DNA from: a virus
IMG/VR virus record: IMGVR_UViG_3300050821_024084
Coordinates: 1-64,000 of that record
Reading direction: 5' to 3' (one strand)
Length of the DNA: 64,000 bases
Shown: piece by piece, positions 1 through 59,390 of the stretch
How the letters are laid out: the number at the start of each line of letters is the position of its first letter
Numbering within the stretch: position 1 is the stretch's first letter
The notes under the pieces: model-generated
What the model was told of the DNA's origin: nothing
Seen by the model: the letters and a program-made list of their open reading frames with translations, nothing else
Database searches by the model: none
Made by a program: the position numbers and the translations under genes

Positions 1-648
1 TCATCCGTGCTCGCGCTGCCGGGCTTCCAGCGCTTCCGTGCGCCTGCGGTAGCCCGCGAGCATTCTTTTCATCTCCTCCATTTCTTCCTGAGAGTTCTCC
101 TGGTACGCGCGGGACTGCGTGGACTGATCTTTCAGCATGGAGATCTCCCGGCGGTGCCGTGCTACCTCATCGACCGTTTGCCCCATGATCTGCGTCAGGT
201 AATCGAAGCTCTCCCCGAGGGAGCGCAGCCTCCTGACTTCAGCAGGGGACAGGCCCTCCTCGCTTGTCGTGCGGATTGTCTCCGCTGCCTTGCTCAGCAT
301 TCGCTGGGAACTCTGACGCTCGGCAATGCCCTTCTGCATCTGCGCGACTCCCCGTGCGATCCGGTAGCCCTGCCCGCGTACGACTACGAGCGTGACCTGG
401 TGCTTGTCCTGAAGCTCGTGCGTGATGCGGGAGATTGTCTGGTAGTACGTCGGGCCGAGTGCCTGCGTTCCTATCGCCTCAGCGAAATCCGCATGAGAGA
501 TGACATCTCCCATGCGGACGCTGCTCAGCTCCAGCTGCACGCAGATCCACTCGAAGCCCGCGCGCCACAGCGCGCGCCCGTCGGGCCGCCGGGGGCGGAA
601 GAGCTCTATCTGCCCCCCGCCCCCGTCCTCGTGGTAGTCCTCAGACAT
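1..648 (-). CDS. Hypothetical protein (winged-helix-like N-half, coiled-coil C-half), translationally coupled downstream of the RAMP-like gene
   Basis: 215-aa ORF. Start overlaps the stop of 641-1372. GDVISHADF...VRGQGYRI resembles a helix-wing segment; the C-terminus is heptad-rich. Confidence 0.7.
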   Translation of the reverse strand: MSEDYHEDGGGGQIELFRPRRPDGRALWRAGFEWICVQLELSSVRMGDVISHADFAEAIGTQALGPTYYQTISRITHELQDKHQVTLVVVRGQGYRIARGVAQMQKGIAERQSSQRMLSKAAETIRTTSEEGLSPAEVRRLRSLGESFDYLTQIMGQTVDEVARHRREISMLKDQSTQSRAYQENSQEEMEEMKRMLAGYRRRTEALEARQREHG

Positions 649-1372
649 CGCCGAGGAATTCCGTCTCGACCTTGAAGCGGCCCGCGCCGTTGATGCGGTT
701 GTCGCCGAGGCCCTCGATGAGACCGCACATTTCCGTGATGTCCCGCAGGGTCTCGAAGTCTAGGAGCTGCGGGAAGAACAGCCACTCGCACTCCAGCGTC
801 CACTGCTTGAAGCGGGGGCGGCACCGGGGCACGCGACCGGACACGGTGACCATCGTGATGTCCTGGTAGGCACCGTGCATCGCGTACAGCGCGTGCGGGG
901 ATCGCTCCATGTCCTTGAACACCAGGCGGATGCCCTCACGTCCTGCCTGCGGGTCCCGGAAGTTCAGCGCGCGGTCGATGGAACGGCCTTGCCGGGTGGC
1001 CTTGGCTGCTTCCTTGAAGGCGCGCTTGATGTTCGTCTGCGGCATGACGACGACGAGATCGTCGTTGTCCTCGTTGGCCGGGCTGTCCTCCGTGCTGCTC
1101 GTGTACCCGGGCTCGAAGAACGCCCGGCTGCCGGTGTAAAGCCCGCCGAGGAATTCCAGGCGGGCCATCTCGTGCCGGTCCTCGTCGGTCTTCTTGCGCT
1201 TGGATGAGATCTTCGCGATGGCCTTGGTGTACGGGTCATCGGGGTTGGCGAGCCGGATGTTGTGCATCAGCAGCTCGGTCGTCCCGGTGAGCGTCGTCCG
1301 CGCGTACGCGAGCTTCAGCCGGCCGCCGCGCTTCTCCTGGGTTTCATTCTGCTCAAGAGCTGGGGTAGTCAC
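641..1372 (-). CDS. RAMP-superfamily (Cas7/Csm3-like) RNA-binding protein, solo, no other cas genes
   Basis: N-terminal strand TLTGTTELLMH, central MPQTNIKRAFKEAA (equivalent to IPGSSxKG), RVPRCRPRF..W, and C-terminal Gly-rich loop GLIEGLGDNRINGAGRF..V, the typical RAMP motif order. RBS GGAAGGA upstream. Confidence 0.75.
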   Translation of the reverse strand: MTTPALEQNETQEKRGGRLKLAYARTTLTGTTELLMHNIRLANPDDPYTKAIAKISSKRKKTDEDRHEMARLEFLGGLYTGSRAFFEPGYTSSTEDSPANEDNDDLVVVMPQTNIKRAFKEAAKATRQGRSIDRALNFRDPQAGREGIRLVFKDMERSPHALYAMHGAYQDITMVTVSGRVPRCRPRFKQWTLECEWLFFPQLLDFETLRDITEMCGLIEGLGDNRINGAGRFKVETEFLGDV

Positions 1373-1423
1373 GCGAGTCCTTCCTGCGATGATGAGGTGT
1401 CTTCTGCTTGCCGTAGCTCCCCT

Positions 1424-1429
1424 AGTATA
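1424..1429 (-). promoter_or_regulatory. Putative -10 element (TATACT) for the RAMP-like gene
   Basis: Plus strand AGTATA; the same GGTATACT context recurs upstream of other leftward genes (about 10168, 12769, 18483). Confidence 0.45.
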
Positions 1430-1459
1430 CCTAACTGGGATGGGCTAGGTATGCGCTAT

Positions 1460-1948
1460 GAGGGAGCCTGTCCTTGCCGTGAGAGAGCCCATCCCCTGCG
1501 ATCCTGGCCGATTCCAGCCTAGCCGCGAGGGAGCCTCGCCTATCCCGTTTCGTCTTGTCCTGCTCCTGAGAGAGCCGGTCCTTGCCCGTCCAGTCCTAGC
1601 CAAGCCCTGAGGTAGCCTTGCCCATCCCATCCGTTCCATTCCGTGTCACGCCGTGAGGGAGCCTAGCCCTTGCGATTCCATCCGTTCCCGTCCGCTCCTA
1701 GCCGCTGCGCGCCCTGAGGGAGCCCGGCCTCTGCGATTCTTTGCTATCCGATCCGCGCCGCTTCCGGTCCTATCCCTGAGGGAGCCTAGCCTATCCGGTC
1801 CGATTCTGGACGTTCCGTGCCTAGCCATTCCGTTCCTGTCCTTGAGGTAGCCCTGCCGGTCCTGTCCATTCCGTTCCGATGCGCGTCCTTCCCCGAGGGA
1901 GCCTTGCCCATCCCGTCCATTCCAGTCTGGCCAATCCCCGAGGGAGCC
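1460..1948 (-). repeat. Non-coding array of about 10 units, each made of 5-nt periods (minus strand GG[A/C]-NN) separated by a 9-nt delimiter; putative guide-RNA array
   Basis: Plus-strand delimiter GAG(G/A)(G/T)AGCC at 1460, 1481, 1527, 1568, 1609, 1655, 1716, 1778, 1844, 1895, 1940. Spacings are 21, 46, 41, 41, 46, 61, 62, 66, 51, 45 (8 of 10 equal 5n+1). The intervening DNA parses as NN-tcc/NN-gcc pentamers. Confidence 0.93.
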
Positions 1949-2057
1949 ACGCTACTTCTGCTCGTTCCGCCGCATGCCGGCGTCCCGGCGGGGTGAACGC
2001 TACCGTGCTGCGCTGGTCACCGCAACCGGGGCACGCTAGACTGTCCCTCACAGCACC

Positions 2058-2089
2058 GAGGCCCCCGGCAGCATGCTGCCGGGGGCCTC
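2058..2089. promoter_or_regulatory. Perfect 32-bp palindrome between the array and the primase gene
   Basis: GAGGCCCCCGGCAGCATGCTGCCGGGGGCCTC. Confidence 0.6.
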
Positions 2090-2123
2090 ATCTCGTACTT
2101 TCCACCGTACGCAAGGAGTCTAC

Positions 2124-4733
2124 ATGCCCGTCACGCCGTTCCGCAACTCCGGCCCGGAACCGGTCCCGATGGACACGCCCTTCGAGATCCCCGGCTGGTT
2201 CCGGTTCACCTGGTGCCGGTGGAACCACACGACGCGGAAGGCAGGCAGGGACCGCGACGGGCAGACCCGGATCAGGTACATCAAGAAGTTCGCGCTGGAA
2301 GGGGAAGTCGAGAGCTACGCGTACGGCACGTTCTGCGCGTTCCCCCGCGAGATGGACACCCAGCCGGGTCTCATCTGCGCGCCGCATGCGCGCTTCCTGG
2401 TCGCGGAGTGCGACGACGATGATGAGTTCGATCTCTCCCTGCTCGGAGACAATCCCGTCCCGACCGTGCGGTCCTCGCGAGGGTTCCACTACTACCACGC
2501 GGTCCCGCCGGAGCTGACGCACCTGATGCCAACCGACGGCCCGCTGCCGGGCGGGGATCTCCAGACGGCGGGCTTCGTGCCCGCGCCGGGCTGCACGCAC
2601 CCGTCCGGCGCGATCTACACGCTGGTGTCGGATCATCTCCCGGTAGCGGACGAGGCGATGCTGCTGCGGCTGCGCGCTGCCCGCACCCGGCAGAACGAGC
2701 GCCAGCGGGAGGTCTACCGCGAGCGCGGCGGGACGGGGGGCTACGACGGCTCAGGGATCAACGGGCAGGACGATTACCTGGCGAAGGAGATCTGCTGGAA
2801 GCTCGTCGCGCAGGGCCTGCCGGAGGCCGGGGTCCGGGAGATCTGGGAGCGGGAGGCTGCTCAGCTGCCGCTGGCCGACCCGTCCGATCCTTTCACCGGC
2901 GATGATTTCACCCGGCATTACGCAGGCGCGATGCGGAAGTACGCCCGGATGCAGGAGCGCGAGGCAGCTCCTGTGCGAGCGCTGACGAGCTGGAAGCCTA
3001 TGATAGCGGCTGCTGAGGAGAGCGAGGAAACCGTGACTGACGAGCCGTTCCCGCCGTCGCCGTTCCGTCCGGGCGCGGGCGCGTTCCGCATCAGCGACGG
3101 CCAGGTGGTCGAGGAGGTGCTGCTCCGCAAGGGCAAGGACATCCGGCTGGTCGCGTACTGCCCGATGTATGTCTCGCGGAGGATGTTCGACGACAAGGGC
3201 GAGATCCAGTACGAGATCTCCTGGAAGGCATACGACGGCCAGCTCATGCGCAGCTGCGCGACGGCGGCGGACATCCGCAATCACACCCGGCTCCTGACGG
3301 TGTTCCCGGAGGCTGTGGTGACCTCGACCGAGGCTCCGGCGCTGAGCAGGTACCTCACGAAGTACATCCAGGTGCATGCCGACGTCCTGCATGCGAATCA
3401 GGTGCGGATCGCCACCTCGCTGGGGTGGCAGAGCGGCACCGACTTGTTCGTGTCCGGCGACGGGCGTCCGTGCCAGGTGCAGGACACCGCGAATCTGGGG
3501 CGCTGGATGAGCGGTCATCAGGCATCCGGCTCACTGGAGACCTGGCGGGCGGCTCTGGAGCGCGCGCCGTGGCGGGTGCTCGTGCTGACCGCAGGCGCAT
3601 GTGCTGCTCCGCTGCTGAACATCCTTCAGGTCAATGGCTTCATCGTCAGCAACTCAGGGGAGACCACCCGGGGCAAGACGCGGGCGGCCCGGGTGGCGGC
3701 TAGCGTCTGGGGTAATCCCGAGGAGACTGTGCTCAGCTGGAGCGCCACGCGCGTCGCCCTGGAGCGCTACGCAGCGTCAGCACGAGGCGTGCCGCTCGTG
3801 GTGGATGACTCCAAGCTGGCGCGCACCGGGAACCAGATCGCGGAGATCATCTACCAGATCGCGTCGGGCACGTCGACCAGCAAGTCGGAGCGCTCGGGAG
3901 CGCGGCTCCAGGAGACGTACATCATCCGCACGGTGATGATCACGAACGGTGAGCAGCCGCTGCTGAGCGCGAGTGAGCACAGTGATGGCGGGGCGGCGGC
4001 TCGCGTGATCGAGATCTGGGGGCCTCCGTTCGAGTCTGCGGACCAGGCGGACATGCTGGACAGCGTGGTGACCGAGCATCACGGGCTGGCGGGCGAGCAT
4101 TTCGTGACCTGGCTGCTCGGCCTGGATGCGGAAGACATCCGCGCACGGTACCGGACCTTGCGCGAGAAGACCCAGGCTTCCGCGCAGACGGACGTCGCGC
4201 GCCGGCGGGGCAGTGCGATCGCCGTGCTGCGGCTGGCGGCGGAGCTGGCACATGAAGCTGGCCTCCTGCCGGAGATCGCCGAGGAACACTGGACCGAGAT
4301 CATTGCAGAGCGACCGGGTGAGGAGGGCTCTGATGATCTGCCTCGGGAGGCGCTGGAGAAACTCTGGCGTGAGGTGATGATGAACCGGAACATCTTCTGG
4401 GAGCCCCGTGACGGAGCAGGGCTCGCCTCCCAGGCGGTCCGGGGGCTCATCCCCGCCGGAGGGTTCGCTGGCCGGCTGGAGACTGAGAAGAACTGGGTGG
4501 CCGTCCGCCCGGAGTGGCTGAAGGACTTCCTGAAGAAGCACGGGCATGAGGCGGAGGGTGTCATCCGCAGCTGGGCGGAGCGCGGGTGGGTGGCTCAGAC
4601 GAAAGAGGGGAAGCGCACTATCCCGACACGGATCGCGGGCGGGTCGCCGGTAAAGCTCATCAAGGTGACCGAGCTTCCCGAAGGCGTCAGCAATATCGGC
4701 GAGGATCTTCTGCGAGACAGCGAAGATCTCTGA
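2124..4733 (+). CDS. Bifunctional primase/polymerase (AEP Prim-Pol) fused to a DUF927/Cch-like helicase
   Basis: TVRSSRGFHYY and GFVPAPGCTHPSGAIY Prim-Pol motifs; SLGW, Walker A SGETTRGKT, Walker B LVVDDS, ITNGE, ARVIEI, EHHGLAG helicase motifs; RBS AAGGAG before ATG 2124. Confidence 0.85.
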   Translation: MPVTPFRNSGPEPVPMDTPFEIPGWFRFTWCRWNHTTRKAGRDRDGQTRIRYIKKFALEGEVESYAYGTFCAFPREMDTQPGLICAPHARFLVAECDDDDEFDLSLLGDNPVPTVRSSRGFHYYHAVPPELTHLMPTDGPLPGGDLQTAGFVPAPGCTHPSGAIYTLVSDHLPVADEAMLLRLRAARTRQNERQREVYRERGGTGGYDGSGINGQDDYLAKEICWKLVAQGLPEAGVREIWEREAAQLPLADPSDPFTGDDFTRHYAGAMRKYARMQEREAAPVRALTSWKPMIAAAEESEETVTDEPFPPSPFRPGAGAFRISDGQVVEEVLLRKGKDIRLVAYCPMYVSRRMFDDKGEIQYEISWKAYDGQLMRSCATAADIRNHTRLLTVFPEAVVTSTEAPALSRYLTKYIQVHADVLHANQVRIATSLGWQSGTDLFVSGDGRPCQVQDTANLGRWMSGHQASGSLETWRAALERAPWRVLVLTAGACAAPLLNILQVNGFIVSNSGETTRGKTRAARVAASVWGNPEETVLSWSATRVALERYAASARGVPLVVDDSKLARTGNQIAEIIYQIASGTSTSKSERSGARLQETYIIRTVMITNGEQPLLSASEHSDGGAAARVIEIWGPPFESADQADMLDSVVTEHHGLAGEHFVTWLLGLDAEDIRARYRTLREKTQASAQTDVARRRGSAIAVLRLAAELAHEAGLLPEIAEEHWTEIIAERPGEEGSDDLPREALEKLWREVMMNRNIFWEPRDGAGLASQAVRGLIPAGGFAGRLETEKNWVAVRPEWLKDFLKKHGHEAEGVIRSWAERGWVAQTKEGKRTIPTRIAGGSPVKLIKVTELPEGVSNIGEDLLRDSEDL

Positions 4734-4742
4734 GGAGGGAAA

Positions 4743-4937
4743 ATGTACGACTGGCAGTTCACCTTGCCTGATGGTAACAAGGGGCTCATCGATGCCGAGG
4801 AAATGGGGGACACCACCGTCTGGCATGCCATCATCACATCGGATCCGGGTGACTGGGAGGGAACGCACGGATGGGGTGGCACAGCGGCAGAGCCCCTGGT
4901 GTTCGCGCTTAACAAGCGCGAAGAGAGCATCACCTAG
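4743..4937 (+). CDS. Small hypothetical protein
   Basis: 64-aa ORF with strong RBS GGAGGG. Confidence 0.55.
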   Translation: MYDWQFTLPDGNKGLIDAEEMGDTTVWHAIITSDPGDWEGTHGWGGTAAEPLVFALNKREESIT

Positions 4938-5004
4938 CTAACTCATAGTGAGCGCTCCGCTTCATTAAGTACGAGAGCAGGAGCGGAGCGCTCGAAAAAC
5001 ATCT

Positions 5005-5425
5005 CTGACCTGCATGTACCCCCTTGTACCCCCTTGTACCCCCGCTGTACCCCCCTAAAAATGTCCCTGACCTGCATGTACCCCCTGTACCCCCTTTTCG
5101 GGGATTTTAAGACGCAGGTACGCAGCCGCGTCTTGTTTGTATTCTGTACCCCCTCGTACCCCCTCGTGTACCCCCTCAGCAGGTCCCTGACCTGCATGTA
5201 CCCCCTGTACCCCCTGTACCCCCTAAAAATATCACCCTCGCGTGTACGCGTGCGTGCGTGCGTGCGTGAGGTTGTTCTACGAACGGGGTACAGGGGGTAC
5301 AGGGGGTACATGCAGGTCAGAGGCTTAAGAAGGGGGTACAGAGAGGGGTACAAGGGGGTACAGACACAGAGAGTAAGTAAGTAAGTAACAGAGAGTATAT
5401 ATATATATATATAAGAAAAAAGAAG
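5005..5425. repeat. Putative replication origin: GTACCCC iterons (direct then inverted) plus (TA)n AT-rich tract
   Basis: Many TGTACCCC(C) copies at 5015-5224; CTGACCTGCATGTACCCC x3; inverted GGGGTACA copies at 5285-5361; TATATATATATATATA at about 5396-5413; located immediately after the primase-helicase. Confidence 0.75.
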
Positions 5426-5490
5426 TACATCCTAAGAACTACCCCCCTTGCAGTAAGCTTGAGGGAGGCGGGAGGGCCAGGAGGGAAACC

Positions 5491-5679
5491 ATGAAGAACG
5501 AGCTGATCACGTGCCGCTGCGACCGGTACGGCGACCCGTGCCGGAACCCGGCGACGCAGGAGGACCTGCTCTGCGATGACTGCCGGGGCCGGAGCTGCTG
5601 GTGGATGGCGATTGAGCGGCAGGAGGCGACCCATTTCCTCCCCGCCTGGAACCTCCTCCCGGTCAGTACGCCCGGCTAG
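5491..5679 (+). CDS. Small Cys-rich hypothetical protein
   Basis: 62 aa, CxC..C..CxxC, RBS GGAGGG. Confidence 0.55.
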   Translation: MKNELITCRCDRYGDPCRNPATQEDLLCDDCRGRSCWWMAIERQEATHFLPAWNLLPVSTPG

Positions 5680-5796
5680 GAGCGATTCCCGGTTTCCGGC
5701 TTCAGAATCGCTCCGCAAAATTTTGTTGAAATTTCAAACTCCCATAAGGCTGTTTACGCGCTCGGATCGCTTGCTCTCACCGGGTAAACTGAGTTC

Positions 5797-7041
5797 ATGA
5801 GCACGACAGAGCGCACCTCGCACGGCACCTCGATCCGGGAGACCTGGGGTCCGGCGGTGACGATCGAGGACATCGAGCTGATCCTGGTCCGCGCCGGGGC
5901 GGCGTCCGGGGTGCGGATGCGGGTGCTCGACGCGGTGCGCAAGCACGTCAGCTGGGAGCTCAACAAGCGGATCCGCCCCTGGGGCGATTCTGCGGAGACC
6001 GGGCTGTCCCGGGTGCAGCGCGAGGAGCGGGACGCGCGGCGGGCGCGGATTGCGGCCAGCCTGGAGGACGTCGCCCTGGAGGTGCCCGCAGACGCCCCTC
6101 CGGTTCGCTCTGACGCGTTTTCAGCCCCGGACCCTACCGGAACTACCCCCCCGCCCTCCGAGGCGCTCAGGGACGCTCCCAGGGCCGCTGAGCCCGAGCC
6201 CCGGATCCGTATCCCGCTCCCCGTGAACCCGGAGCCGCTGCCGGATGCTGAGCCGGAGACAGCCGAGCTGGAGGAGATCGACGCGGAGCCGGAGCCTGAC
6301 GACGGCGATGCGGATGACGATGCGGATGACGAGGCGGTCGTCGAGGCGATCCGGGAGCTGCTGGGGGTCACCCCGGACCTGCGCCTGGTGCCGGACCAGG
6401 CCCCCGCCCCGGAGATGCCCTCGGAGAGCTCCCCAGCGGCCCCGGGACCGTCGGAGACCCCCGGACCCATACCGGAGGTACCCCCCGCCCTCCCGACGCC
6501 TCCAGCGCCCGCAGATGAGGCTTCCCGGCCGTCCCCCGGGAACGCGGAGCCGGAGCCCGCCGCTGCGGAGCCCACGGAAGCCACCTGCCGGGCCTGCGGG
6601 GCGGTGAAGCCGCTGGCGGGGTTCCGGCTGGATGACGGCCGCTGGCCGCGCCGGACGTGCCGGGCCTGCGAGGTGATCCAGCGCAGGGAGCGCAGGGAGC
6701 GGGAGCGGCTGCGGAAGACGACGCGGGCGTGCAGCAAGTGCGGCGTGCCCAAGCCCCTGACGGACTTCCGTCTCGACAAGTCCGGCCCGGACGGGAGGGC
6801 ACGGCAGTGCGCGGCGTGCATCCGGGAGCGGGAGCGGGCCTGGCAGGAGCAGCGGCAGAAGGCACGCCTGCTGGAGACGGGGTTCGTGGCGTGCACGAAG
6901 TGCGGGGAGCTGAAAGACCCTCAGACGGACTTCTACCCGAGGCGGCTGAAGAAGGACGGGCGGGCGACGCAGTGCAAGGAATGCGAGAAGGCGTATGCTA
7001 GGAATCACCGGAAGCCGAAGACGGCAGCAAAAGATTCTTGA
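5797..7041 (+). CDS. Protein with acidic/Pro-rich linker and three C-terminal CxxC-x-K..F-x-CxxC zinc-binding repeats
   Basis: TCRACGAVKPLAGF..CRAC, ACSKCGVPKPLTDF..CAAC, ACTKCGELK..DF..CKEC; TAAACT 6 nt before ATG suggests a leaderless start. Confidence 0.7.
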   Translation: MSTTERTSHGTSIRETWGPAVTIEDIELILVRAGAASGVRMRVLDAVRKHVSWELNKRIRPWGDSAETGLSRVQREERDARRARIAASLEDVALEVPADAPPVRSDAFSAPDPTGTTPPPSEALRDAPRAAEPEPRIRIPLPVNPEPLPDAEPETAELEEIDAEPEPDDGDADDDADDEAVVEAIRELLGVTPDLRLVPDQAPAPEMPSESSPAAPGPSETPGPIPEVPPALPTPPAPADEASRPSPGNAEPEPAAAEPTEATCRACGAVKPLAGFRLDDGRWPRRTCRACEVIQRRERRERERLRKTTRACSKCGVPKPLTDFRLDKSGPDGRARQCAACIRERERAWQEQRQKARLLETGFVACTKCGELKDPQTDFYPRRLKKDGRATQCKECEKAYARNHRKPKTAAKDS

Positions 7042-56529: not shown

Positions 56530-56662
56530 GCACCGGGTGGAGATCACCGACAAGATGGACTCCGAGATCGAGCGCCTGGCGCAGGATCTCGCTGCGAACG
56601 GCGCAGGCGAGCCGGTGCTGCCGGAGCTACCTGCCGGGGTGACGTCCGGTGACGGAGACTGA
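56138..56662 (+). CDS. terS: Terminase small subunit
   Basis: HTH GMTYQQIA, RRKLLGLDQP; directly upstream of terL. Confidence 0.75.
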   Translation: MSGTRTQTLQVDSRALQRYVQGMTYQQIADAEQCSEQTAHIRVRRAIRNQYRLEADELRVVADEQLSFLTRQLTALIHKKSYKIAPNGKIAVHPETGEPLEDYSEQRMTALALLKVGESRRKLLGLDQPVKHRVEITDKMDSEIERLAQDLAANGAGEPVLPELPAGVTSGDGD

Positions 56663-59390
56663 CGAGCCTCCGGAGCTCCCCCCTAACTGGCGGGATCTCG
56701 GTCCTGATGCCAAGCGCGTGCTGCTGCACAAGCTGCGCGGCATGGCGGTCAGCAAAGGACTGGGCGGACCTCGTGAGTGGCGGTCGAAAGCGCGGCCCAA
56801 GCAGCTGCCCCCGAGTGACCCAGCACATCATCTGCCGGACGGTAACGGGTTCAGATGCGGATGTTCCGGTCCTGATGAGAACTGGAATATCTGGATGTTC
56901 ATGGCCGGCCGGGGGTGTGTTGCCGGGCATACGCGCATCTGGCTACCGCTGGAGAACCGGTTCGAGCGGATCGATACGCTAGTCCGTCAGGGAGAGGCCG
57001 TCATTGTCCTCTCCCTGACGGAGAATGGCGCAGAACCACGTCAGACTGACGGGGCTCCTTTCATCGGGGGCGTGGCAGAGCTGTATGATGTGCTGACTTC
57101 GGACGGCAACCGCATCACGGTGACTGACCGGCATCGTTTCCTGACTCCGCAAGGATGGCTGCCACTCGCTCGCGTGCACGTCGGACAGCTTCTTGCCGGA
57201 GGCGCTCCCGCTCCTCCGCAGGAAGCTTCTTCACACCGGTCAGGGTGGCGTGAAGATGCTCGGAATTGGCGGGGAACACGCGAAGATTCTCCGGACGATT
57301 ATCCGAGGTATCCCCGTTCACATGATCAACTACCTCGTCAGGGGACAGGCAGCGTCCTAGCACCTGCTCCATCACGAGTCGATGCTGCCGGACATACCCG
57401 AGATTATTCATGTGAGGATGATTTCTCATCTTCACGAGAATGTAACCGTCCTCGTCGACTGCATAGCCTCCCTTCCAGAAGTAGTTATGCTCGGGACGCG
57501 CTTTCGCCTCTAGACACGGAAGTCCGAGTTCTATCAGGCGTGAGCGAACTGTCTCTGCGTTACAGCCGAGGATGGCTGCCATTTCCGTGCATGTCATCTG
57601 CTGGGCATGCAAGTCGCGGAGCTTATCAGTGTCTACAGGCATGCGACTGCCCTGAGACATGCGCTTGCGCGACAGGTCAGAAGCCCTATGCCCTCGCAGC
57701 TGCACCCCGGCACGTTGCAGAGCGCGTCCTACGGTCTGATAACTTGTTCCGGTTGTCTGAGCAAGGTCTTTCAGCGGCTCTCCTTCCTGATAGCGCCGGA
57801 TCAGGTCCGGAAGAAGATCTGACGGTATCTTGGAGTACTCTCGGCTCGGCATGTGAGCATGGTATCACGTGGACGAGAGTACGGTCGGTCCGGTCTGCGG
57901 GAACAGGATGGTTTTATGACCTGACTGTCCCTGGTGCAGAGAATTATGCGGCGGAAGGTCTCTGGCATCACAATTGCGGAAAAACCTGGTCGGGCGCTAA
58001 CTGGATAATTGAACAGGCGCTCCGGAACCCGGGAACGATGTGGGCGGTCGTTGCCCCGACATTCCGGGATGTCCGGGTCACGTGCTTCGAAGGCCCCTCC
58101 GGGATTCGACGTCTTCTTCAGCCTGGTGAGGAAGATCAATGGCGCAGGAATGAGCTGCGCCTGGATCTGGTGAATGGCTCCGTTATTTACGGGTATTCGG
58201 CTGACCAGCCGGAACGATTGCGCGGATCTAACCTTTCCGGGGCGTGGGTAGATGAAATGGGGAGTTTTGCGTATGAGGAAACCTGGTATGAGGGACTAGT
58301 CCCTGCGCTACGTATCGGGGAACATCCCCGTGTCATGGTCACCACGACTCCGCGCCCGACGAAGCTCATCCGGGATCTGTACTCGCGTCGCGACGGCACC
58401 GTTCACACCACCACGGCCTCCACCTGGGAGAATGCGGCCAACCTGTCGGCTGCCGCCCTCGATGAGCTCAAGCGCCGGTACGAAGGCACCCGGCTGGGCC
58501 GTCAGGAGCTTGAAGGCGTCCTCCTGGAGGATCTGGAAGGCGCGCTGTGGCGGCGCAGCGATATCGACGCTGCGCGAGTCAGGCCGGAGGACGTGCCAGA
58601 TCTGGCCCGCGTGGTGGTGGCGATCGACCCGGCGATGAGCGCCGACGAGGATGCTGACGAGACGGGCATCATCGTGTCCGGGGAAGACGGGCGCGGCCAC
58701 GGGTACGTCCTGGCGGACTGGTCGATGCAGGGCACGCCCGAGGCATGCATGCGGCGGGCTGTCCAGGCGTACAAGCACTACAACGCGGACTGCGTCGTGG
58801 CTGAGGTCAACAACGGCGGTGACTTTATCGGCACGGTGCTGCGCACCGTCGATCCGAATCTGCCCTACCATCAGGTGCGGGCCTCGCGCGGGAAGGCGAT
58901 CCGGGCAGAGCCTGTGTCGTCACTGGCGGAGCAGCACCGGCTGCATCACGTGGGGAACTTCCCGGAGCTGGAAGATCAGCTCTGCTCATTCGTCCCGGGA
59001 ATCGCCGGGCCGTCCCCGGACCGGCTTGACGCGCTGGTCTGGTCAGTATTCGAGCTGAAGAGCTTGTCGCAGTCCAGCTGGCTCTCCGCGTACGGAGCCA
59101 TCCGCTGCACGCAATGCGAGATGGCGTTCCGGGGCTCGGCGACGTGCCCGCGCTGCGGAGCAGATGCACCTGCATCGCCTGACGGGGGAAGCTTCTCCCC
59201 GGAGGGGGCGGGGGAGGATCGCAGCATGGGCGGCTGGGCCTCGGTGTACCGGCTGGCCAGGTGCAGCAAGGGACACGTGTACTCTGAGCGGTCCGGTGGC
59301 TGCCCGCAGTGCCGGTCCGGCGGCCTGGACTGGCTGCGCGCGCACGGCAAGCCCGGTGGACAGGCAGGTTCCGGGGCGGTAAGCTCGTAG
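56649..59390 (+). CDS. terL: Terminase large subunit with intein in Walker A
   Basis: AGRG|intein|CGKT, VVAPT, RLRG, AWVDE, TTTP, GRQEL, VVAIDP, EVNNGG, RGKAIRAEP, SPDRLDALVW. Confidence 0.95.
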   Translation: MTETDEPPELPPNWRDLGPDAKRVLLHKLRGMAVSKGLGGPREWRSKARPKQLPPSDPAHHLPDGNGFRCGCSGPDENWNIWMFMAGRGCVAGHTRIWLPLENRFERIDTLVRQGEAVIVLSLTENGAEPRQTDGAPFIGGVAELYDVLTSDGNRITVTDRHRFLTPQGWLPLARVHVGQLLAGGAPAPPQEASSHRSGWREDARNWRGTREDSPDDYPRYPRSHDQLPRQGTGSVLAPAPSRVDAAGHTRDYSCEDDFSSSRECNRPRRLHSLPSRSSYARDALSPLDTEVRVLSGVSELSLRYSRGWLPFPCMSSAGHASRGAYQCLQACDCPETCACATGQKPYALAAAPRHVAERVLRSDNLFRLSEQGLSAALLPDSAGSGPEEDLTVSWSTLGSACEHGITWTRVRSVRSAGTGWFYDLTVPGAENYAAEGLWHHNCGKTWSGANWIIEQALRNPGTMWAVVAPTFRDVRVTCFEGPSGIRRLLQPGEEDQWRRNELRLDLVNGSVIYGYSADQPERLRGSNLSGAWVDEMGSFAYEETWYEGLVPALRIGEHPRVMVTTTPRPTKLIRDLYSRRDGTVHTTTASTWENAANLSAAALDELKRRYEGTRLGRQELEGVLLEDLEGALWRRSDIDAARVRPEDVPDLARVVVAIDPAMSADEDADETGIIVSGEDGRGHGYVLADWSMQGTPEACMRRAVQAYKHYNADCVVAEVNNGGDFIGTVLRTVDPNLPYHQVRASRGKAIRAEPVSSLAEQHRLHHVGNFPELEDQLCSFVPGIAGPSPDRLDALVWSVFELKSLSQSSWLSAYGAIRCTQCEMAFRGSATCPRCGADAPASPDGGSFSPEGAGEDRSMGGWASVYRLARCSKGHVYSERSGGCPQCRSGGLDWLRAHGKPGGQAGSGAVSS
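56916..57974 (+). mobile_element. Intein (353 aa) in terL
   Basis: Starts CVAGHTRI, block B ITVTDRHRFLT, ends YDLTVPGAENYAAEGLWHHN followed by +1 Cys. Confidence 0.92.
57115..57852 (-). CDS. HNH homing endonuclease encoded antisense within the terL intein
   Basis: Two HTH repeats, NYFWKGG...GYILV...HP...GYVRQHRLVME..LGR.L...EVVDHVNGD.SDNRPENL. Confidence 0.88.
   Translation of the reverse strand: MPSREYSKIPSDLLPDLIRRYQEGEPLKDLAQTTGTSYQTVGRALQRAGVQLRGHRASDLSRKRMSQGSRMPVDTDKLRDLHAQQMTCTEMAAILGCNAETVRSRLIELGLPCLEAKARPEHNYFWKGGYAVDEDGYILVKMRNHPHMNNLGYVRQHRLVMEQVLGRCLSPDEVVDHVNGDTSDNRPENLRVFPANSEHLHATLTGVKKLPAEERERLRQEAVRRARERVAAILAESGNDAGQSP

What the first reader, a model, noticed from the sequence alone, without database searches (positions are those of the whole stretch)
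1..1990. Candidate phage RNA-guided system: solo Cas7/RAMP-like gene with an upstream array of pentamer-periodic (GGM-NN)n units
Seen in sequence: 1460-1948 is non-coding and consists of about 10 units bounded by a 9-nt delimiter (minus strand GGCT[C/A][C/T]CTC). Inside each unit a conserved triplet (minus strand mostly GGA or GGC, occasionally GCA/GAA/GAC) alternates with a variable dinucleotide, 2 to 11 periods per unit, and unit spacings are almost all 5n+1. Example on the plus strand: ta gcc ta tcc gg tcc ga ttc tg gac gt tcc gt gcc ta gcc at tcc gt tcc tg tcc tt. The array lies immediately upstream of, and on the same strand as, a 243-aa protein with the RAMP motif order and C-terminal Gly loop. 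No cas1, cas2, cas3 or CRISPR repeats are present. Established: Cas7-type RAMPs polymerise along guide RNA with a fixed nucleotide period per subunit. Inference: the transcript is cut at the delimiters into small RNAs, one RAMP subunit binds each 5-nt period through the triplet, and the variable NN positions form a discontinuous target code. Without a nuclease the likely output is DNA binding or transcriptional silencing, for example of competing phages. From memory this matches the architecture of the recently reported VIPR (viral interference programmable repeat) systems, although those were described with GGY triplets rather than GGA/GGC; this link needs verification.
Basis: partly seen in the sequence, partly recalled or inferred. 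Interest (0 to 1): 0.97.

Follow-up and report, generated by a model that had tools for sequence, protein, structure and literature searches.

The report
Phage VIPR guide-RNA system, GGA/GGC type
This soil actinobacterial provirus carries a real VIPR system (a Cas7-like Vipr protein, a DNA-binding helper gene and ten five-letter-repeat guide RNA units), a CRISPR-like class first described in 2026 preprints, so it is a new example with a few local peculiarities, not a new kind of system.

Summary
On the minus strand, 1948-1460 has 11 copies of GGCT[C/A][C/T]CTC bounding 10 units of G-G-M-N-N pentamers. Lag-5 identity is 0.44 against 0.28±0.02 in shuffles, the strongest in the 101-kb record.

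The 243-aa ORF (641-1372, minus) is a Vipr protein. A family profile matches PDB 36pp 'SUSP1 Vipr protein' end to end (E 5.5e-45), and its confident model resembles Csm3/Cas7.

- The gene is not solo. A Vap1-like gene (winged helix plus coiled coil, 1-648) overlaps its stop codon by 8 nt.
- Metagenome contigs show a second array just beyond window position 1.
- GGM is real (position 3: A 65%, C 33%, T 0%). It is a derived trait of a small clade (window, L081, L082) inside a group of seven loci that share the 9-nt separator and 5n+1 spacing.

No natural target was found and no RNA data exist. VIPR is already in print (three 2026 preprints, which mention variant consensus repeats and staggered arrays), and this scan has noted VIPR loci on other DNA about 340 times. 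Verdict: new member of a known kind, moderate to low interest.

The parts
1460..1948 (-). vrRNA array. It holds 10 units of G-G-M-N-N pentamers separated by 11 copies of the 9-nt separator GGCT[C/A][C/T]CTC. Each unit reads NN + (GGMNN)n + GGCTC + CCTC, with n = 2-11.
   Evidence: Searches give the segmentation and composition. One search gives the periodicity against shuffles. One search shows the RNA is less structured than shuffles (z = +3.72). One search finds no Rfam family and no ribozyme.
641..1372 (-). vipr gene: a 243-aa Vipr protein (minimal RAMP/Cas7-like RNA-binding subunit) with a GTG start.
   Evidence: phmmer against PDB 36pp_D 'SUSP1 Vipr protein' gives E 7e-13; the family profile gives E 5.5e-45 over positions 4-190 of 192. 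The AF2 model has pLDDT 91.9. Foldseek top hits are all Csm3/Cas7. It matches phrog_4652. SUSP1 contact residues H17, R138, D177 and R179 map to H37, R185, D224 and R226 here.
1..648 (-). vap gene: a 215-aa Vap1-like accessory protein with a winged-helix domain (about residues 27-99) and a long coiled coil (101-214). Its ATG overlaps the vipr stop by 8 nt.
   Evidence: The AF2 model has pLDDT 85.9. Foldseek gives weak winged-helix hits to SaeR, GntR and FadR DNA-binding domains (E 7e-3, prob about 1). hhalign to the gene after vipr in Felixounavirus wV8 gives 96.5% probability, E 9e-10; to Mycobacterium phage LittleE gp33 it gives 99.5%. Homologous ORFs sit directly after vipr in at least 40 loci.
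1373..1459 (-). 87-nt non-repeat leader between the last separator and vipr, containing the ribosome-binding site GGAAGGA.
   Evidence: Read from the sequence. A comparable leader with a shared TAGGTA motif lies before vipr in L081 and L082. Function is inferred.
1949..2057 (-). Non-repeat region upstream of the array and the presumed array promoter. It has TTGCGG-17 nt-TAGCGT, plus a second TAGCGT directly before the first separator.
   Evidence: Read from the sequence. The sigma-70 consensus scan found nothing, so this is inference only.
2058..2089 (.). Perfect 32-bp palindrome (16-nt arms, no spacer) in the divergent intergenic region between the array and the primase-helicase gene.
   Evidence: The Logan contigs of run X1 break here. 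Role unknown; it may not belong to the system.

Best explanation
This is a VIPR (Viral Interference Programmable Repeat) locus of an uncultured soil actinobacterial provirus. Its layout is array, then vipr, then a vap1-like gene, then a second array just outside the window, all on the minus strand.

Shown here:
- The protein is a Vipr homologue with a RAMP fold.
- The array is non-coding, 5-nt periodic and G-rich on the vipr strand. It has two near-fixed G positions, an A/C third position and two maximally variable positions.
- The helper gene is Vap1-like.

Inferred by homology with SUSP1 (bioRxiv .720920 and .720927):
- The minus strand is transcribed.
- One Vipr protomer binds each pentamer and sequesters the G-G-M triplet, using conserved H37, R185, D224 and R226.
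- The NN dinucleotides are displayed and pair with double-stranded DNA under the 'two read, one skipped' rule. The resulting R-loop/triplex blocks transcription of a rival mobile element, with the winged-helix Vap protein assisting.

My own inference for this clade: the constant last pentamer GGCU(C/A) followed by the GG-less 6-nt linker CCUCNN ends each filament and shifts the frame by +1. The precursor is therefore divided into 10 short guide RNPs of 3-12 protomers, possibly after trimming of the naked linker by host RNases. This would replace the roughly 40-nt pseudoknot tail of type II or a hammerhead ribozyme.
For: - Sequence homology to a solved Vipr.
- Fold.
- Conserved G1/G2 contact residues.
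- Periodicity and per-position composition.
- Arrays on the vipr strand in almost all of about 160 related loci.
- Closest relatives: L081 and L082 have the same layout, with arrays on both sides and separator GGATCCCTC. L001, L002, L005 and L084 have GGCTACCTC separators.
- Spacing is 1 mod 5 in 31 of 36 intervals across the clade.
- In L005 and L084 the array after vap ends in a hairpin plus T-run, giving the same transcription direction as vipr.
- The array RNA folds worse than all 100 shuffles (z = +3.72), as expected for a protein-coated single strand.
- The vap gene is homologous to the Felixounavirus vap1 position.
- There is no self-target under the 1-nt skip rule.
- Proviral context: IMG/VR provirus, a terminase and a primase-helicase.
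Against: - No expression or processing data exist for this locus.
- No natural target was found for any guide.
- Units are short (6-11 pentamers, one with only 2) compared with 9-16 in the characterised systems. Several pentamers are degenerate (GAATC, GCAAA, AAACG), and two units carry a 1-nt indel, so some guides may be weak or decaying.
- SUSP1 W178, which stacks on G2, is Asn here.
- The residues that form the SUSP1 pyrimidine pocket are all different, so RNA recognition cannot simply be copied from SUSP1.
- The linker model of unit definition is my inference and has no direct support.
Confidence: 0.87

Rival explanations
1. The locus is a VIPR relic. The protein and array are recognisably VIPR, but the array is decaying (short and degenerate units) and no longer directs silencing.
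For: One unit has only 2 pentamers. There are 16 of 72 pentamers without GG, and two frame-breaking indels. No target was found for any guide.
Against: All tested RNA-contact residues except W178 are conserved, and the ORFs are intact and translationally coupled. Positions 1-3 remain strongly constrained while positions 4-5 are at maximal entropy. The RNA avoids secondary structure. Near-identical copies occur in soil metagenomes of different studies and years. [quoted passage not shown]
Confidence: 0.06
2. It is a mechanistically distinct VIPR subtype. In the window/L081/L082 clade, Vipr recognises a purine (A) at scaffold position 3. This makes it orthogonal to GGY systems and to rivals' solo vrRNAs. 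Units are defined by the CCUCNN linker alone.
For: Position 3 is A in 65% here and 87-88% in L081 and L082, against C or T in almost all other loci. The three proteins form a supported clade (SH-aLRT 97) nested among GGC-type sisters. In this clade the G-loop residue before the invariant GRF is Ala, whereas it is aromatic in 134 of 146 loci. The SUSP1 pocket is reported to exclude purines.
Against: This rests on one evolutionary event, so the Ala/A coincidence is anecdotal. Other A-rich arrays (L113, L151) keep Tyr at that site. The window still uses C in a third of repeats, which suggests relaxed specificity. The discovery paper already lists 'a related consensus' and NNNGG-type repeats.
Confidence: 0.05
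3. It is not a guide system at all. The periodic tract would be a simple tandem or micro-satellite-like repeat or a protein-binding DNA array (iterons), and the RAMP-like gene would be unrelated to it.
For: Phage genomes do carry iteron arrays; one lies at 4995-5365 in this window.
Against: The same gene-plus-array pairing recurs, on the same strand, in about 150 unrelated contigs. The array is strand-asymmetric (G-rich on the gene strand), with hypervariable NN positions, unlike iterons. The homologous SUSP1 arrays are experimentally shown to be guide RNAs.
Confidence: 0.02

Closest known systems
VIPR systems (Vipr + Vap + vrRNA), reference type II system of Escherichia phage SUSP1 (bioRxiv 10.64898/2026.04.26.720920 and .720927; PDB 36pp, 36pk)
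   Same: The Vipr protein is homologous over its full length. The G1/G2 contact residues H, R and D, and the G-loop Arg, are conserved. The accessory gene directly after vipr is vap1-like. The arrays are pentamers with two fixed G positions and two hypervariable positions on the vipr strand. The context is viral or proviral, with no cas genes, no CRISPR repeats and no nuclease gene in the locus.
   Different: Identity to SUSP1 Vipr is only about 29%. Position 3 is A or C and never U, whereas SUSP1 uses a pyrimidine and its pocket excludes purines. SUSP1 W178 is Asn here. Units end in a 9-nt separator instead of a roughly 40-nt pseudoknot tail. There are 10 or more contiguous units of 2-11 repeats, against 4 vrRNAs of about 12 repeats. 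The protein has a 25-residue acidic insertion (about residues 80-105) and a 20-residue N-terminal extension.
'Staggered' vrRNA arrays of other VIPR types (legend of fig. S18 in 10.64898/2026.04.26.720920)
   Same: [quoted passage not shown] A 1-nt offset between neighbouring units fits the 5n+1 spacing seen here and in six relatives.
   Different: Only the legend text could be read. Neither the figure nor the tables are held. Identity of architecture, separator sequence and type number therefore could not be checked.
Class 1 CRISPR-Cas backbone subunits (Cas7/Csm3)
   Same: Both have an RRM/RAMP fold with a glycine-rich loop and a thumb (Foldseek prob 1.0, TM 0.45-0.53). Both oligomerise on the RNA with a fixed nucleotide period; for Vipr this was shown on SUSP1.
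   Different: Sequence identity is 10-14%. The period is 5 nt instead of 6. There is no CRISPR repeat, no Cas6/Cas5/Cas10/Cas11 and no adaptation genes. The guide is read discontinuously.

Membership tests
VIPR system | Vipr protein homologous to the described Vipr family | tested here: met
   PDB 36pp_D 'SUSP1 Vipr protein': E 7e-13 with the single sequence and E 5.5e-45 end to end with the profile.
VIPR system | Minimal RAMP fold: a single RRM core, a glycine-rich loop and a thumb | tested here: met
   AF2 model with pLDDT 91.9. The 43 Foldseek matches with E <= 0.001 that are listed are all CRISPR backbone RAMPs: Csm3 of type III-A, Cmr of type III-B and the type VII backbone subunit. The G-loop is GLGDNRINGAGRF.
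VIPR system | Residues that read G1 and G2 of the repeat (SUSP1 H17, D177, R138, W178) | tested here: inconclusive
   H37, D224 and R185 are conserved and invariant or near-invariant in the family. W178 is Asn225 here. This rests on alignment only, with no RNA complex.
VIPR system | Tandem pentamer repeats (at least 4) of conserved GGY alternating with hypervariable NN, next to vipr on its strand | tested here: met
   There are 72 pentamers. Positions 1-2 are G in 97% and 79%, and positions 4-5 have 1.9 bits of entropy. The third letter is A/C instead of C/U, a 'related consensus' in the paper's terms.
VIPR system | Accessory vap gene beside vipr | tested here: met
   A 215-aa winged-helix plus coiled-coil protein is translationally coupled to vipr. 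It is homologous to the gene after vipr in Felixounavirus wV8, in LittleE and in at least 40 loci.
VIPR system | No CRISPR array or cas adaptation genes; viral or proviral location | tested here: met
   No Cas1 in the record. The only repeat cluster of this kind is the array itself. The record is an IMG/VR provirus with 88% CheckV completeness and carries a terminase. cas2 and cas3 were not searched.
VIPR system | vrRNAs are expressed and co-purify with Vipr | not testable with these tools
   No RNA run holds the locus.
VIPR system | Guides match natural targets under the 1-nt skip rule and avoid self | tested here: inconclusive
   No self match above shuffled controls. No convincing external target was found.
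VIPR type II (SUSP1 / P. fulva clade) | About 40-nt conserved structured 3' tail (a pseudoknot in the SUSP1 clade) after each repeat tract | tested here: not met
   Units are separated by only 9 conserved nt plus 2 variable nt. The array as a whole is less structured than shuffles.
VIPR type II (SUSP1 / P. fulva clade) | vap1 accessory gene | tested here: met
   hhalign of the vap family profile against wV8 gp095 gives 96.5% probability, E 9e-10. That gp095 is the vap1 orthologue is inferred from its position and size relative to the paper's 1,114-bp vipr-vap1 segment.
CRISPR-Cas class 1 effector | CRISPR repeat-spacer array and further Cas subunits (Cas5, Cas6, large and small subunits) | tested here: not met
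   There are no 25-40-nt repeats. The neighbours are a winged-helix protein and a primase-helicase. No Cas1.

The most novel reading that the evidence does not exclude
Within a clade of actinobacterial-phage VIPRs that use a bare 9-nt separator (GGMUNCCUC) and a +1 frame step to divide one transcript into many short guides, the window/L081/L082 lineage has switched the third scaffold letter from C to A. This happened together with loss of the otherwise near-universal aromatic residue in the G-loop. If Vipr here truly prefers or tolerates a purine, the scaffold itself is an evolvable 'password'. It would keep rivals' solo vrRNAs, which are known to hijack Vipr in the SUSP1 family, from loading, and it would give an orthogonal second channel for engineering.
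Probability: 0.15. Interest if true: 0.55.

Novelty: new member of a known kind. Interest (0 to 1): 0.3.

Why it matters
The locus adds a well-resolved actinobacterial-phage example to a class known from only a few months of preprints. It documents three natural variations in a form that can be tested directly:
- a purine at scaffold position 3;
- a 9-nt unstructured separator with 5n+1 spacing in place of a pseudoknot tail or a ribozyme;
- guides as short as 6-8 repeats.

These bear on how vrRNA ends are defined and on how specific the Vipr-scaffold contact is. Both questions matter for engineering orthogonal VIPR tools. As a discovery of principle it is not new: the class, its code and its variants are in print, and this scan has flagged VIPR loci many times.

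Tried and rejected
Target search, no convincing result:
- Own 101-kb record under skip rules 0-3: only the array itself matched, at skip 3.
- All 169 fetched loci: best matches equal to shuffled-guide controls.
- Exact gapped patterns in viral contigs: unit 3 in full, 0 hits. Unit 5 in full, 1 hit in a 43.7% GC contig, L167:795-823, with no other guide converging. Unit 2 plus tail, 0 hits. Unit 4, 0 hits. First 9 repeats of unit 3, 1 hit at L170:7469 in a 54% GC contig, 20 of 22 letters overall and no convergence. I read both single hits as chance.
- Unit 5 with up to 2 mismatches in 401 Actinomycetes genomes: 15 hits against 11 for the reversed-pattern control.

Other attempts:
- Expression: no RNA holder listed.
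- Rfam, including hammerhead: nothing near threshold.
- Sigma-70 promoter scan: none found.
- Link between the position-3 base and residues aligned to the SUSP1 Y3 pocket (E71, M72, C173, T175): no general rule across about 146 loci.
Comparing arrays between near-identical phages was therefore not possible.
- The first genome-contig scan failed for lack of a conserved stretch.
- megablast of window 1-6000 against GenBank phages: no match.
- Vap Foldseek hits are weak (best E 7e-3). The winged-helix call rests on the model's topology together with those hits.
Full report
OBSERVATION. On the minus strand the stretch 1948-1460 contains 11 copies of GGCT[C/A][C/T]CTC, spaced 45, 51, 66, 62, 61, 46, 41, 41, 46 and 21 nt apart. 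Segmentation by a small dynamic program reads every unit as two variable bases, n pentamers, the constant pentamer GGCT(C/A) and then CCTC. There are 72 regular pentamers, one 4-mer and one 6-mer, with 2-11 pentamers per unit. Position 1 is G in 97%. Position 2 is G in 79%. Position 3 is A in 65% and C in 33%, and never T. Positions 4 and 5 carry 1.92 and 1.89 bits, and all 16 dinucleotides occur. Lag-5 identity is 0.444 against 0.283±0.021 in dinucleotide-preserving shuffles, and these are the most periodic windows of the whole 101-kb record. No frame is open across the tract.

THE PROTEIN. The 243-aa ORF at 641-1372 (minus strand, GTG start, GGAAGGA 5 nt upstream) has no Pfam family and matches phrog_4652, of unknown function. 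Against the PDB sequences it hits one thing only: chain 36pp_D, 'SUSP1 Vipr protein'. The E-value is 7e-13 with the single sequence and 5.5e-45, end to end, with a profile of 38 relatives. AlphaFold2 on that alignment gives pLDDT 91.9 and pTM 0.86. The listed Foldseek matches with E <= 0.001 are all backbone RAMPs of class 1 CRISPR, mostly Csm3 of type III-A, at 10-14% identity. The family is large: 5,596 50%-identity cluster representatives at E <= 1e-3. Using the alignment and the cryo-EM paper's contact list, SUSP1 H17, R138 and D177 (which read G1 and G2) and R179 correspond to H37, R185, D224 and R226. All four are invariant or nearly so in the family. SUSP1 W178 is Asn225. The residues that form the pyrimidine-only pocket for the third letter (E71, M72, C173, T175) are Thr113, Asn114, Glu220 and Leu222.

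WHAT IS KNOWN. Three 2026 bioRxiv preprints cover it:
- The first describes Vipr, the vap accessory genes and vrRNAs of alternating GGY/NN. It also describes the rule that NN pairs with DNA while every third target base is skipped, silencing of rival phages and satellites, seven types, 'a related consensus' in some types (NNNGG, YNNNG, NNNNG), staggered arrays and ribozyme-interspersed arrays.
- The second gives the filament and triplex structures.
- The third covers competition with satellites and solo vrRNAs.

An index look-up shows that this scan has already noted VIPR-like loci about 340 times on other DNA.

THE NEIGHBOURHOOD.
- Accessory gene. The ORF at 1-648 (215 aa) starts inside the vipr stop codon with an 8-nt overlap. 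Homologous ORFs sit directly after vipr in at least 40 related loci. A model built on 24 of them (pLDDT 85.9) shows a winged helix (about residues 27-99) followed by about 110 residues of long helices. Foldseek gives weak but consistent winged-helix DNA-binding hits. Its profile matches the gene after vipr in Felixounavirus wV8, the SUSP1 group (96.5%, E 9e-10), and in Mycobacterium phage LittleE (99.5%). The gene is therefore Vap1-like, and 'solo' is not accurate.
- Second array. The record is an IMG/VR provirus (CheckV 88%) that begins exactly at the vap stop codon. Soil-metagenome contigs that cover window 1-2087 run on to the left. About 96 nt beyond position 1 they carry sequence that aligns to 1640-1704 of the array, and a loose end reads, in reverse complement, GGACC GGAAG GGACA GGATA GGCCA. 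A second array therefore follows vap, outside the window, as in the closest relatives.
- Cas genes. There is no Cas1 and only one Vipr in the record.

RELATIVES.
- Arrays. About 160 loci were fetched from viral, metagenome and genome collections. Almost all carry GG-at-lag-5 tracts next to vipr on its strand.
- Third letter. It is C or T in nearly all of these loci. It is A in 87-88% of repeats in L081 and L082, the closest relatives with DNA (50% identity), and A/C mixed in the window.
- Shared separator. Seven loci share the short separator: GGCTCCCTC in the window, GGATCCCTC in L081 and L082, and GGCTACCTC in L001, L002/L027, L005 and L084. Their unit spacing is 1 mod 5 in 31 of 36 intervals.
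- Tree. In a quick maximum-likelihood tree (the careful search did not finish) the six of these loci kept after removing identical sequences (L027 duplicates L002) form one group with SH-aLRT 93, and window+L081+L082 form a subclade with support 97.
- G-loop residue. In that subclade the G-loop residue before the invariant GRF is Ala, whereas it is aromatic in 134 of 146 loci. This is one event, and other A-rich arrays (L113, L151) keep Tyr, so the link is only suggestive.
- Direction and tails. In L005 and L084 the array after vap ends in a hairpin plus T-run, which fixes the direction of transcription as that of vipr. More distant clades use other, longer tails (L020, L113).

HOW IT MOST LIKELY WORKS. 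The shown parts are the homology, the anatomy and the conservation pattern. A further result is that the array RNA is predicted to be less structured than every one of 100 shuffles (z = +3.72), which fits a single strand kept free for protein coating. The following steps are inferred from SUSP1. The minus strand is transcribed from the non-repeat region 1949-2057. One Vipr protomer binds per pentamer and buries G-G-M. The NN pairs are presented and read DNA two bases on, one off. Binding blocks transcription of a competitor, helped by the winged-helix Vap. My own inference concerns unit definition. The constant pentamer GGCU(C/A) is in frame with the preceding repeats, and it is followed by six bases without GG (CCUCNN). 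That linker would leave a gap in the filament and shift the next unit by +1, so it could both end a filament and expose a site for host RNases. This probably corresponds to the paper's 'staggered' arrays, but only the legend could be read.

TARGETS. None was found; the searches and their controls are listed under Tried and rejected. In brief, own-record matches under the 1-nt skip rule equal shuffled controls, which agrees with the papers' report of no self-targeting. Scans of viral contigs, of the fetched loci and of 401 Actinomycetes genomes gave nothing above chance or control. What the system is aimed at remains unknown. The NN positions are 46% G+C against 65% for the phage, and TA is the commonest dinucleotide. 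This is not what wobble-aligned coding targets in a high-GC genome would give, but I did not test that further.

VERDICT. The thing is a new member of the published VIPR kind. Its local features are the A/C third letter, the 9-nt separator with 5n+1 spacing, short units and a Vap1-like partner. These are worth a line in a catalogue and a few bench tests, but they do not make a new class.

Noticed in passing
left of window position 1 (outside the window; seen through runs X1 and X4): Metagenome contigs continue past the record's edge. About 96 nt beyond the vap stop codon they carry a second GGMNN array: a piece aligns to 1640-1704 with 10 differences, and a loose end reads GGACC GGAAG GGACA GGATA GGCCA in reverse complement. 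The provirus boundary therefore cuts the VIPR locus in two.
   Followed up: partly
window 2058-2089: A perfect 32-bp palindrome (GAGGCCCCCGGCAGCA and its complement, no spacer) lies between the divergently oriented array and the primase-helicase gene. Assembly contigs break here. It could be an operator, a bidirectional terminator or a cruciform; this is untested.
   Followed up: partly
window 4995-5365: Directly after the primase-helicase gene (DUF927/Prim-Pol, 2073-4733) lies a non-coding block of about 20 copies of a 9-10-nt iteron, TGTACCCCC(T). The copies form two inverted groups (arms 5143-5242 and 5265-5364, 79% complementary). This looks like a replication origin.
   Followed up: partly
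window 5797-7041: A 414-aa protein has an acidic, proline-rich N-terminal half and three or more repeated Cys-rich modules. These match Lar-like restriction alleviation, endonuclease VII and HNH PHROGs (E 1e-20).
   Followed up: no
window 1460-1948; L003:2430-2445: The separators GGCTCCCTC, GGATCCCTC and GGCTACCTC, and especially the single tail GGATCACCTC in L003, resemble the 3' end of bacterial 16S rRNA (GGAUCACCUCCUUUCU, recalled from memory). This could be chance in a short C/U motif, or a hint that a 16S 3'-end processing activity defines vrRNA ends.
   Followed up: no
window 641-1372, residues about 80-105 of the protein: A 25-residue acidic, low-confidence insertion (pLDDT about 64) is present only in the window protein and its nearest relatives (P0002, P0003, P0008), between the helical bundle and the first strand after it. 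Role unknown.
   Followed up: no
window 56649-59390: In this 913-aa ORF only residues about 444-850 match large terminases (37-46% identity to diverse phages). The N-terminal 440 residues are unexplained, and the true start may lie further downstream.
   Followed up: no
L113:3850-3960 and 4560-5400: A distant Vipr locus (35% identity, lower G+C) also uses GGA-NN repeats (66% A at position 3) but has a different, longer tail (GGGCCACACCGC...). Purine at position 3 has therefore arisen more than once.
   Followed up: partly
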